A stretch of DNA of 64,000 bases from Escherichia coli (GTDB lineage Bacteria > Pseudomonadota > Gammaproteobacteria > Enterobacterales > Enterobacteriaceae): assembly GCF_046105845.1 (NCBI RefSeq), contig NZ_CP151004.1. One strand, given 5' to 3'. Position numbers: made by a program. Positions 6,001 to 9,000 of the stretch are shown here, one piece after another. The stretch's first letter is position 1. The number at the start of each line of letters is the position of its first letter.

Positions 6001-9000
6001 ATTTGCACTCTGACCGGTTAAATCAGAATGTCCGGTAATATCTACATCCGGATCAATATAAACCGCACCCGCAGAAAATGTCGGGCGGTCAAACATGGTA
6101 ATCAATGCGGGGTTACGGCTAACGTTACCTGCATCATCGGCAATTGCGCCTTCCCCTGAATAAGCCCGGCCCAGGCCAGAGGAAGAAAATTCGTTTAACT
6201 GAAAGCCTGCCGACCAGACCTGGGTGGAGATAAGTGCCACTGCGACTGCGAGAGCAGACTTTGTAAACAGGGTTTTCTGGCTCATGACCATAACCTCAAT
6301 GATTTATTTTTATACAAACTATGTTACGTGCTGTAACAGGAGCGCGAAGTGTAGGGTCTGAGGTACATCTTAGAAATCAGACCAGTGGCGAGAGTATAGG
6401 TCGGACCAGCTGGAATGTTGCAAGTATGTTTCTATCTTTTTTCAAATATGATCTAAGAAACGCGATCCAGCTGGCAAAATTTGGAGGTGGCGCACTCATG
6501 GATTCGGGTGAATTTTGTCTTAGATCATTTTTAAGTGTGATTTCGGTCACTTATCCGATTTTGCAGAATTAACAACTGGAGCAGCACTTTCCGGAAGCGT
6601 AAAATATCCACAACGTTTATCTGGCACCTTGGGTGCACATACAGAGGAAATCAACGATGAGTAAATGTAGTGCTGATGAAACCCCGGTTTGCTGCTGTAT
6701 GGATGTTGGCACCATTATGGACAACTCCGACTGCACCGCGTCTTACAGCCGCGTGTTTGCAAACCGCGCAGAAGCAGAACAAACGCTGGCGGCGCTGACT
6801 GAAAAAGCCCGTAGCGTGGAATCCGAACCGTGCAAAATCACCCCGACTTTCACTGAAGAGTCTGACGGTGTGCGCCTGGATATCGATTTCACTTTTGCCT
6901 GCGAAGCTGAAATGCTGATCTTCCAGCTGGGTCTGCGTTAATTCCTCTCGGGTACGTATGCCCCTGTCAGTTGTTGGCAGGGGCGTTTTATTTTCTTTCT
7001 CCTGTCTTCACTGTGTCATAGCTCCCACTTTCCTTTTTCTCCGCTTGGCTAAATGTAAAAAAATGGTTAAGAATATGATCAGGTCAGACCACTTTATATC
7101 TTTTTTTACAGGGGAGTGTTATGGGTCAGGTTTTACCGCTGGTTACCCGCCAGGGCGATCGTATCGCCATTGTTAGCGGTTTACGTACGCCTTTTGCCCG
7201 CCAGGCGACGGCTTTTCATGGCATTCCCGCGGTTGATTTAGGGAAGATGGTGGTAGGCGAACTACTGGCACGCAGCGAAATTCCCGCCGAAGTGATTGAA
7301 CAACTGGTCTTTGGTCAGGTCGTACAAATGCCGGAAGCCCCCAACATTGCGCGTGAAATTGTTCTCGGTACTGGAATGAATGTGCATACCGATGCTTACA
7401 GCGTCAGCCGCGCTTGCGCTACCAGTTTCCAGGCGGTTGCAAACGTCGCAGAAAGCCTGATGGCGGGAACTATTCGCGCGGGGATTGCCGGTGGGGCCGA
7501 TTCCTCTTCCGTATTGCCAATTGGCGTCAGTAAAAAACTGGCGCGCGTGCTGGTTGATGTCAACAAAGCTCGAACCATGAGCCAGCGCCTGAAACTCTTC
7601 TCTCGCCTGCGTTTGCGCGACTTAATGCCGGTGCCTCCGGCAGTGGCGGAATACTCTACTGGCTTGCGGATGGGCGACACCGCTGAACAAATGGCGAAAA
7701 CCTACGGTATTACTCGCGAACAGCAAGATGCATTAGCGCACCGTTCGCATCAGCGAGCCGCTCAGGCGTGGTCAGACGGTAAACTCAAAGAAGAGGTGAT
7801 GACTGCCTTTATCCCTCCTTATAAACAACCGCTTGCCGAAGACAACAATATTCGCGGTAATTCCTCGCTTGCTGATTACGCAAAGTTGCGTCCGGCGTTT
7901 GATCGTAAACACGGGACGGTAACGGCAGCAAACAGTACGCCGCTGACCGATGGCGCAGCGGCGGTGATCCTGATGACCGAATCGCGGGCGAAAGAATTAG
8001 GGCTGGTACCGCTGGGGTATCTGCGCAGTTACGCATTTACTGCGATAGATGTCTGGCAGGACATGTTGCTCGGTCCGGCCTGGTCAACGCCGCTGGCGCT
8101 GGAACGTGCCGGTTTGACAATGAGCGATCTGACATTGCTCGATATGCACGAAGCCTTTGCAGCTCAGACACTGGCGAATATTCAGTTGCTGGGTAGTGAA
8201 CGTTTTGCTCGTGATGTACTGGGGCGTGCACATGCCACTGGCGAAGTGGACGATAGCAAATTTAACGTGCTTGGCGGTTCGATTGCTTACGGGCATCCCT
8301 TCGCGGCGACCGGCGCACGGATGATTACCCAGACATTGCATGAACTTCGCCGTCGCGGCGGTGGATTTGGTTTAGTTACCGCCTGTGCTGCCGGTGGGCT
8401 TGGCGCGGCAATGGTTGTGGAGGCGGAATAATGGAAATGGCATCAGCGTTTACCCTTAATGTCCGTCTGGACAACATTGCTGTTATCACCATCGACGTAC
8501 CGGGTGAGAAAATGAATACCCTGAAGGCGGAGTTTGCCTCGCAGGTGCGCGCCATTATTAAGCAACTCCGTGAAAACAAAGAGTTACGTGGCGTGGTGTT
8601 TATCTCCGCGAAACCAGACAACTTCATTGCTGGCGCAGACATCAACATGATCGCCAACTGCAAAACGGCGCAAGAAGCGGAAGCACTGGCGCGGCAGGGT
8701 CAACAGTTAATGGCGGAGATTCATGCTTTGCCCGTTCCGGTTATCGCGGCTATTCATGGCGCTTGCCTGGGCGGTGGGCTGGAGTTGGCGCTGGCGTGCC
8801 ACGGTCGCATGTGTACTGACGATCCTAAAACGGTGCTCGGTTTGCCTGAAGTACAACTTGGATTATTACCCGGTTCAGGCGGCACCCAGCGTTTACCGCG
8901 TCTGATAGGCGTCAGCACAGCATTAGAGATGATCCTCACCGGAAAACAACTTCGGGCGAAACAGGCATTAAAGCTGGGGCTGGTGGATGACGTTGTTCCG

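What the first reader, a model, noticed from the sequence alone, without database searches (positions are those of the whole stretch)
6372..6412. Tandem FadR operators upstream of fadL
Two adjacent matches to the FadR operator consensus lie about 90-120 bp upstream of the fadL start on its sense strand. This fits repression of fadL by FadR and implies a fairly long 5' leader.
Basis: partly seen in the sequence, partly recalled or inferred. Interest (0 to 1): 0.2.

Follow-up and report, generated by a model that had tools for sequence, protein, structure and literature searches.

The report
Known tandem FadR operators of fadL

Summary
Confirmed and already known. The window is E. coli chromosome. 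fadL lies on the minus strand (4945..6291). Two 17-bp FadR sites sit upstream in fadL sense orientation: OL1 AGCTGGTCCGACCTATA (6395..6411) and OL2 CACTGGTCTGATTTCTA (6371..6387), 24 bp centre to centre.

The published K-12 EMSA probes for fadL FadR site 1 and site 2 (Feng & Cronan 2012, PMC3460868) match the window base for base. The promoter differs from K-12 at 1 of 401 bases, outside the operators.

Calibration against published distances puts the transcription start at 6386. OL1 then spans -25..-9, overlapping the -10 TATACT. OL2 spans -1..+16. The leader is 95 nt (101 nt to the second ATG).

A leave-fadL-out weight matrix makes OL1 the best new hit in 64 kb. OL2 scores only 8.3 bits, no better than chance on its own.

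OL2 is rescued by an operator-blind comparison of fadL loci from about 30 genera. 115/115 keep an OL2-like core at the corresponding position. 108/115 keep the pair at exactly 24 bp.

Mechanism: FadR occludes RNA polymerase and is released by long-chain acyl-CoA; published repression is about 2-fold. Interest is low.

The parts
6395..6411 (-). FadR operator OL1 (fadL FadR site 1), AGCTGGTCCGACCTATA; -25..-9 relative to the TSS; its 3' end overlaps the -10 hexamer
   Evidence: Exact match inside the published EMSA probe fadL-FadR-site1. 13.8 bits with the leave-fadL-out matrix, the best new hit in the window. Mean cross-species conservation 0.934, with variation at consensus positions 1, 2 and 9.
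6371..6387 (-). FadR operator OL2 (fadL FadR site 2), CACTGGTCTGATTTCTA; -1..+16, covers the transcription start
   Evidence: Exact match inside the published EMSA probe fadL-FadR-site2. Weak matrix score of 8.3 bits. A CTGGTC.G[AC] core is found at the corresponding position in 115/115 fadL loci from other species; mean conservation 0.942.
6393..6398 (-). -10 hexamer TATACT of the fadL promoter (-12..-7)
   Evidence: Ends 7 nt before the calibrated TSS. Conservation 0.997 across 113 distinct sequences. Assignment is inferred from position.
6418..6423 (-). -35-like hexamer TTGCAA (-37..-32; 19-bp spacer)
   Evidence: Conservation 0.994. Inferred only: the long spacer explains why the consensus promoter scan did not report this promoter. 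The published ArcA site is stated to lie 5 bp from FadR site 1; I assume it lies on this upstream side, where it would overlap this block.
6386..6386 (-). fadL transcription start (+1, A)
   Evidence: Calibrated, not measured here. Only 6386 reproduces all three published distances: 95 nt to the ATG at 6291, CRP site 1 centre at -157.5, and CRP site 2 probe centre at +57.5.
6286..6385 (-). fadL 5' leader (95 nt to ATG 6291, 101 nt to ATG 6285)
   Evidence: No Rfam family. Fold no more stable than shuffles, z = -0.79. Mean conservation 0.87.
6536..6551 (-). CRP-cAMP site 1 core AGTGACCGAAATCACA (centre -157.5), the functional activator site
   Evidence: Lies inside the published probe fadL-CRP-site1, which matches exactly at 6522..6566 and is reported to bind CRP-cAMP. 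Conservation over the surrounding 22-nt interval 6533..6554 is 0.88.
4945..6291 (-). fadL coding sequence (446 aa from ATG 6285; 448 aa from ATG 6291)
   Evidence: ORF list. Annotated as fadL in 5,425 of 5,426 E. coli genomes. 76% identical to K-12 FadL.

Best explanation
These are the two known FadR operators of the E. coli fadL promoter. FadR is a GntR-family dimer. Without its ligand it binds OL1, which occupies the promoter spacer and overlaps the -10 hexamer. It also binds OL2, which covers the transcription start and the first 16 transcribed bases. Together the bound dimers sterically hinder RNA polymerase binding or open-complex formation.

When long-chain fatty acids enter the cell and are activated by FadD, long-chain acyl-CoA binds FadR, which then leaves both operators, and fadL transcription rises. 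Repression is deliberately leaky, about 2-fold. This fits the need for basal FadL to import the inducer in the first place.

The transcript carries a 95-101 nt leader. The same promoter also integrates CRP-cAMP, ArcA, OmpR and the sRNA RybB.

What is shown here: sequence identity to the validated probes, the geometry relative to the -10 and +1, and deep conservation. What is taken from the literature: FadR binding, acyl-CoA release and fold-repression. What is inferred: the steric-occlusion step.
For: - Probes: exact identity of window 6387..6421 and 6360..6394 to the K-12 EMSA probes for FadR sites 1 and 2.
- K-12 comparison: the promoter differs from MG1655 at 1 of 401 nt, outside the operators.
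- Published binding data: both sites bind FadR at about 50 nM, oleoyl-CoA abolishes binding, the result agrees with DNase I footprints, and a fadR deletion gives 2-2.5-fold derepression (PMC3460868).
- TSS: calibrated to 6386, placing OL1 at -25..-9 and OL2 at -1..+16.
- Review: the 2022 review states that the fadL FadR sites overlap the TSS, consistent with repression, and gives the consensus aaCTGGTCnGACC(T/A)Gtt (PMC9329746).
- Matrix: OL1 is the best new hit in the window. The same matrix also recovers the fadI site at 7078..7094, so it behaves sensibly. The fabB site it ranks first (25845..25861) was one of its five training sites, so that hit is by construction.
- Conservation: fadL loci were chosen by a coding-sequence anchor independent of the operators. 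108/115 species keep the tandem pair at exactly 24 bp and 115/115 keep OL2.
- Pattern of conservation: the CTGGTC cores lie in the promoter spacer and at +2..+10. The majority base is shared by at least 90% of sequences at nearly every position of these cores, although core-promoter function does not constrain sequence there. The degenerate consensus positions vary.
Against: - OL2 scores only 8.3 bits with the leave-out matrix, no better than chance (21 hits observed, 25 expected). Its right half-site is almost unrecognisable.
- No binding, TSS or expression experiment was done on this particular strain. The original footprint paper (DiRusso 1993) and the TSS paper (Black 1991) could not be read, so their coordinates reach me second-hand plus from memory.
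- Two operators give only about 2-fold repression, so simple occlusion is evidently inefficient.
- Part of the conservation of OL1's 3' end is explained by the -10 hexamer itself.
- fadR is not in the window, so its presence in this genome is assumed.
Confidence: 0.96

Rival explanations
1. Only OL1 is a functional FadR operator. OL2 is a half-site-like sequence conserved for another reason, such as the initial transcribed sequence, the start-site context, or another factor.
For: OL2 scores 8.3 bits, indistinguishable from chance in the matrix scan. By inspection of the sequence, its right half (GATTTCTA) barely resembles the palindromic consensus. It overlaps +1, where promoter function might impose some constraint.
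Against: The isolated 35-bp OL2 probe, identical to the window, binds FadR as well as OL1 does and is released by acyl-CoA (PMC3460868). OL2 is the more universally retained of the two sites: 115/115 loci, including Dickeya and Tenebrionibacter, which lack OL1. The conserved letters are exactly the FadR core CTGGTCTGA.
Confidence: 0.03
2. The sites are shared with, or mainly used by, the paralogous FadR-subfamily regulator PdhR. This would couple fadL to pyruvate rather than only to acyl-CoA.
For: Anzai et al. 2020 (PMC7660256) report a low-level PdhR gSELEX signal at the fadL promoter and lower fadL mRNA in a pdhR mutant. OL1's core TGGTCCGACCT resembles the PdhR box TGGTnnnACCA, which I recall from memory and did not test.
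Against: The PdhR signal at fadL was described as weak. PdhR is proposed to activate fadL, which is hard to reconcile with a site at -25..-9. The PdhR site in the fadL promoter has not been mapped. FadR binding to these exact sequences is directly demonstrated.
Confidence: 0.05
3. The matches are chance occurrences with no regulatory role.
For: A short degenerate motif; OL2-level scores occur about 25 times per 64 kb by chance.
Against: There are two exact 14-nt consensus matches, the only two in the window, and they lie 24 bp apart on the same strand at the core promoter of a fad regulon gene. The sequences are identical to validated probes. Register and sequence are invariant across about 30 genera.
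Confidence: 0.005

Closest known systems
E. coli K-12 fadL promoter FadR sites 1 and 2 (footprinted by DiRusso, Metzger & Heimert 1993; EMSA by Feng & Cronan 2012, PMC3460868). I recall the names OL1/OL2 from the 1993 paper; they could not be confirmed in the searchable literature.
   Same: Same locus and same sequence. Both 35-bp probes match exactly. The same 24-bp register, the same -10, and the same calibrated TSS and leader length.
   Different: Nothing in the operators. One substitution in the 401-bp promoter region (window 6519, G versus A in K-12), upstream of them. The downstream fadL coding sequence is a divergent allele, 76% identical in protein.
E. coli fadD promoter, the other fad gene with two FadR sites
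   Same: Dual FadR sites, modest (2-3-fold) repression, a transport or activation gene needed for inducer entry, and co-regulation by ArcA and CRP (PMC3460868).
   Different: The fadD sites are 68 bp apart. One is more than 10-fold weaker and lies near -100, where repression is hard to explain. The fadL sites are adjacent, of equal affinity, and both on the core promoter.
Single-operator fad promoters: fadBA, fadE, fadIJ, fadH. The fadI site is in this window at 7078..7094.
   Same: The same 17-bp motif overlapping the -10/+1 region, and the same acyl-CoA-relieved repression (PMC9329746).
   Different: One site instead of two, yet stronger repression (5-10-fold for fadBA and fadH).
FadR activator site of fabB (in this window at 25845..25861) and of fabA
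   Same: Same protein and the same motif family. GGCTGATCGGACTTGTT was one of the five sites used to build the matrix, so its top score of 21.8 bits is by construction.
   Different: Located upstream of the promoter, where FadR activates rather than represses, next to a FabR site. It carries CTGATC rather than CTGGTC in the left half.

Membership tests
FadR (GntR family) operator of the E. coli fad regulon | 17-bp site matching the consensus aaCTGGTCnGACC(T/A)Gtt (PMC9329746) | tested here: met
   By inspection against that consensus, OL1 matches 13 of 16 specified positions and OL2 matches 11 of 16. Both have the full left half CTGGTCnGA. Matrix scores are 13.8 bits for OL1 (strong) and 8.3 bits for OL2 (weak).
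FadR (GntR family) operator of the E. coli fad regulon | Specific binding of purified FadR to the site (EMSA or DNase I footprint) | not testable with these tools
   Published for sequences identical to the window: both 35-bp probes match exactly. Binding is complete at about 50 nM and is stated to agree with the DNase I footprints of DiRusso 1993.
FadR (GntR family) operator of the E. coli fad regulon | Binding abolished by long-chain acyl-CoA | not testable with these tools
   Published: 25-50 uM oleoyl-CoA releases FadR from both fadL sites (PMC3460868).
FadR (GntR family) operator of the E. coli fad regulon | For a repressed gene, a position overlapping the -10/+1 region of the promoter | tested here: met
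   With the TSS calibrated to 6386, OL1 spans -25..-9 and overlaps the -10 at -12..-7, and OL2 spans -1..+16. The TSS itself comes from the literature (95 bp upstream of the start codon).
FadR (GntR family) operator of the E. coli fad regulon | Target gene derepressed in a fadR mutant or by fatty acid | not testable with these tools
   Published: 2-2.5-fold for fadL-lacZ, plus induction by oleate.
FadR (GntR family) operator of the E. coli fad regulon | Site conserved at orthologous promoters in species with an E. coli-type FadR | tested here: met
   115/115 fadL loci keep OL2, and 108/115 keep the OL1+OL2 pair at exactly 24 bp. Operator conservation is 0.93-0.94 against 0.73-0.74 for upstream flanks. 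The loci were chosen by a coding anchor, not by the operators.
FadR (GntR family) operator of the E. coli fad regulon | The cognate fadR gene is present in the same genome | not tested
   fadR maps far from fadL in K-12 (my knowledge) and I did not search this window for it. Its presence is assumed because the organism is E. coli.

The most novel reading that the evidence does not exclude
The comparative data suggest something the literature I read does not discuss. OL2, the weak matrix match, is the universally retained and probably ancestral operator. It is present even in Dickeya and Tenebrionibacter, which lack OL1. OL1 was added on the -10 in Enterobacteriaceae, and since then the two have been locked in a strictly invariant 24-bp register (108/108 loci with the pair). 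If that register is constrained by FadR-FadR or FadR-RNA polymerase architecture, and not merely by -10-to-+1 geometry, the dual operator would be a device for setting a leaky, finely tuned basal level of the inducer's own importer rather than for stronger repression.
Probability: 0.2. Interest if true: 0.3.

Novelty: already known. Interest (0 to 1): 0.07.

Why it matters
This matters little as a discovery. The tandem FadR sites of fadL were, according to the literature I could read, footprinted in 1993 and re-validated in 2012, and they appear in reviews. The value here is as a calibration.

- An unaided reader located a real pair of operators to within one base.
- A naive PWM threshold would have discarded the second, experimentally proven operator. 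An operator-blind phylogenetic footprint rescues it.
- The cross-genus data (an invariant 24-bp register, and OL2 more universal than OL1) modestly extend the published remark that the sites are 'largely conserved' in Citrobacter, Klebsiella and Enterobacter.

Tried and rejected
- my first cross-species core regex had a wrong spacer length and returned nothing, not even for the window. Corrected.
- the sigma-70 consensus scan did not report the mapped fadL promoter, because the TTGCAA/TATACT spacer is 19 bp and the scan allows 16-18. It reported an upstream TTGCCA-18-GATCAT instead. I do not treat that as the fadL promoter, because it is incompatible with the published TSS.
- Rfam gathering scan of the whole window found no RNA family in the leader, only a tRNA.
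- folding the leader gave z = -0.79, so it has no unusual stability. A riboswitch-like leader is rejected.
- Black 1991 (TSS mapping) is not held, and one search found no open paper giving the footprint coordinates. The TSS was therefore calibrated indirectly from three distances in PMC3460868. The alternative TSS at 6380 (95 nt from the second ATG) was rejected: it puts the CRP centres at -163.5 and +51.5 and the -10 13 nt upstream.
- An IUPAC consensus derived strictly from the five non-fadL sites over-fits, so I used the matrix instead.
- another CTGGTCNGA hit, at 31910, lies at the junction of two co-oriented ORFs, so I took it as chance. The hits at 38, 52744 and 57142 were not examined.

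Full report
**What is in the sequence**

The window is E. coli chromosome. A 501-bp query around the finding hits the fadL-yfcZ intergenic region in 5,425 of 5,426 complete E. coli genomes. fadL is on the minus strand, 4945..6291, with in-frame ATGs at 6291 (MVMSQK...) and 6285 (MSQK..., the start annotated in K-12). yfcZ and fadI-fadJ run divergently on the plus strand.

Read in fadL sense, the intergenic region contains AGCTGGTCCGACCTATA (6411..6395, here OL1). After the 7-bp gap CTCTCGC comes CACTGGTCTGATTTCTA (6387..6371, here OL2).

**Is it more than chance?**

- The consensus CTGGTCNGAYNTNT, written from my memory of the published motif, matches exactly only at these two places in the 64 kb.
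- The core CTGGTCNGA occurs 6 times against 1.36 expected.
- To avoid circularity I built a weight matrix from five EMSA-validated FadR sites of other genes: fadBA, two in fadD, fabA and fabB. Their sequences come from the primer tables of PMC3460868 and PMC4259882.
- With that matrix, OL1 scores 13.8 bits, the best non-training hit among 127,968 positions.
- The next hit (13.7 bits) is AAGTGGTCTGACCTGAT at 7078..7094, directly upstream of fadI, which the literature lists as a FadR target. The matrix therefore behaves sensibly.
- OL2 scores only 8.3 bits, a level reached by 21 sites in the window against 25 in Markov simulations.
- So, from sequence statistics alone, OL1 is convincing and OL2 is not.

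**Experimental identity**

Feng & Cronan 2012 (PMC3460868) list the 35-bp probes used for 'fadL FadR site 1' and 'site 2'. Both match the window exactly, at 6387..6421 and 6360..6394. Their two CRP probes and both promoter-cloning primers also match exactly. The whole 401-bp promoter differs from K-12 MG1655 at one base (6519), outside the operators.

That paper reports the following:

- The two fadL sites bind FadR with equivalent affinity, with complete shift at about 50 nM.
- 25-50 uM oleoyl-CoA abolishes binding.
- This agrees with the DNase I footprints of DiRusso et al. 1993.
- Deleting fadR derepresses fadL only 2-2.5-fold.
- The TSS lies 95 bp upstream of the start codon.

The 2022 review PMC9329746 gives the consensus aaCTGGTCnGACC(T/A)Gtt. 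It states that the fadL FadR sites overlap the transcription start, consistent with repression.

**Geometry**

I could not read the TSS-mapping paper, so I calibrated the TSS indirectly. Only +1 = 6386 gives all of the following at once:

- 95 nt to the ATG at 6291.
- A CRP site 1 centre at -157.5 (published: 157 bp upstream).
- A CRP site 2 probe centre at +57.5 (published: 57 bp downstream).
- A -10 hexamer TATACT (6398..6393) ending 7 nt before +1.

OL1 is then -25..-9, sharing its last four bases with the -10 hexamer (TATA of TATACT). OL2 is -1..+16. These are the coordinates I remember from DiRusso 1993, which is memory, not a tool result. A -35-like TTGCAA lies at -37..-32 with a 19-bp spacer. 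That spacer is why the consensus promoter scan missed this promoter. The leader is 95 nt (101 nt to the second ATG). It has no Rfam match and no unusual folding energy (z = -0.79).

**Comparative test**

I collected fadL loci from one genome per species, using a pattern that encodes the conserved mature N-terminus [13 protein letters not shown]. This anchor is blind to the promoter.

- Of 115 sequences with at least 400 nt upstream of the anchor (114 loci plus the window itself), 108 have two CTG[GA]TnnG[AC] cores exactly 24 bp apart. All 115 have the OL2 core at the corresponding position.
- Three of the seven exceptions carry a variant OL1, CACTGGTCGTACCTATA. Dickeya and Tenebrionibacter have no recognisable OL1.
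- In a MAFFT alignment of 113 distinct sequences, mean conservation is 0.934 for OL1, 0.942 for OL2, 0.997 for the -10 and 0.994 for the -35.
- The comparison values are 0.74 and 0.73 for the upstream flanks and 0.87 for the rest of the leader.
- Within the operators, the variable columns are the degenerate consensus positions: 1, 2 and 9 of OL1, and 15 and 17 of OL2.
- At nearly every position of the CTGGTC cores, at least 90% of sequences share the majority base. These cores lie in the promoter spacer and at +2..+10, where core-promoter function does not dictate sequence. This supports a protein-binding constraint and rescues OL2.

**Mechanism**

- Shown here: the sequences are identical to validated FadR probes. 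They sit on the -10 and +1 of the fadL promoter. They are conserved in sequence and register.
- From the literature: FadR binds both sites, long-chain acyl-CoA releases it, and loss of FadR raises expression about 2-fold.
- Inferred: repression by steric occlusion of RNA polymerase, and the idea that leakiness is adaptive because FadL imports the inducer.

**Rivals**

- OL1-only function is contradicted by EMSA on the isolated OL2 probe and by OL2 being the more universal site.
- PdhR sharing the sites is suggested by a weak gSELEX signal at the fadL promoter (PMC7660256). It is unmapped and hard to square with activation from -25..-9.
- Chance is excluded.

**Comparison with the known, and novelty**

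This is not like the known fadL FadR operators; it is them, in a strain whose promoter is essentially K-12. Verdict: already known, observation confirmed, interpretation supported. Interest is low.

The only modest additions are two. First, a leave-out matrix under-calls OL2. Second, the cross-genus result: a strictly invariant 24-bp register, and OL2 more ancient or universal than OL1.

**Side observations**

- Behind this K-12-like promoter sits a very different fadL allele. FadL is 76% identical to K-12 FadL.
- The divergence is confined to a sharply bounded block, about 6051..4996, with 42-85% identity per 60-nt bin. The flanks are 97-100% identical on the promoter and signal-peptide side and 87-100% on the 3'/yfdF side.
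- About 918 of 5,424 matching E. coli genomes carry this allele at 95% identity or more, and 3,954 carry a form only 60-80% identical. The promoter, by contrast, is at least 95% identical in all matching records.
- The leader contains an inverted repeat, TGTTAC-N5-GTAACA (6338..6322, +49..+65). Its arms are nearly invariant and its centre is variable across genera, with one double change to TATTAC/GTAATA.
- That repeat is the centre of the 'CRP site' that does not bind CRP. It remains unexplained.

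Noticed in passing
window 4996..6051 (fadL coding body, minus strand): Sharply bounded divergent cassette inside fadL. 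It is 42-85% identical to K-12 per 60-nt bin, while the promoter, signal peptide, last ~15 codons and the yfdF start are 87-100% identical. FadL protein is 76% identical to K-12. About 17% of complete E. coli genomes carry this allele (>=95%) and about 73% carry a form only 60-80% identical. FadL is a phage receptor, so this looks like recombinational exchange of the surface-exposed barrel.
   Followed up: partly
window 6322..6338 (minus strand; +49..+65 of the fadL leader): Inverted repeat TGTTAC-N5-GTAACA, with arms nearly invariant and the 5-nt centre variable across ~113 Enterobacterales fadL leaders. One sequence has a double change keeping the symmetry (TATTAC/GTAATA). It is the centre of the predicted 'CRP site 2' that fails to bind CRP (PMC3460868). 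It could be an RNA hairpin, one of the footprinted OmpR sites, or a site for an unidentified factor.
   Followed up: partly
window 7078..7094 (minus strand), 27 nt upstream of the fadI ATG at 7121: Strong FadR-type site AAGTGGTCTGACCTGAT (13.7 bits with the leave-fadL-out matrix). It is presumably the FadR operator of fadIJ, which the literature lists as a FadR target.
   Followed up: partly
window 25845..25861 (plus strand), upstream of fabB (25928..27148): FadR activator site GGCTGATCGGACTTGTT of fabB, followed by the GCGTACAAGTGTACGC palindrome that I take to be the FabR site. The 57-nt K-12 fabB probe of PMC4259882 matches with one substitution. The window therefore holds three FadR-controlled promoters: fadL, fadIJ and fabB.
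   Followed up: partly
window 6448..6477 (minus strand): Sigma-70-like TTGCCA-18-GATCAT about 60-90 bp upstream of the mapped fadL TSS, partly conserved across genera. It is a possible secondary promoter or simply part of the upstream regulatory block.
   Followed up: no
window 6236..6243 (minus strand; fadL codons ~15-17): GCAGTGGC is complementary to the 5' seed of the sRNA RybB as I recall its sequence (memory only). The review PMC9329746 states that RybB pairs with fadL mRNA, but the text I read does not give the position.
   Followed up: no
window 1018..1092 (minus strand): tRNA-Arg (anticodon CCT), the only Rfam or ARAGORN RNA gene found near the locus. It is probably argW, a known prophage integration site in K-12 (the argW identity is from memory).
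   Followed up: no
window 1..12000: The best match to any of 5,426 complete E. coli genomes over these 12 kb is only 98.1% (O139:H1 swine strains), mainly because of the variable fadL-yfdF segment. The strain itself is apparently not in that collection.
   Followed up: no
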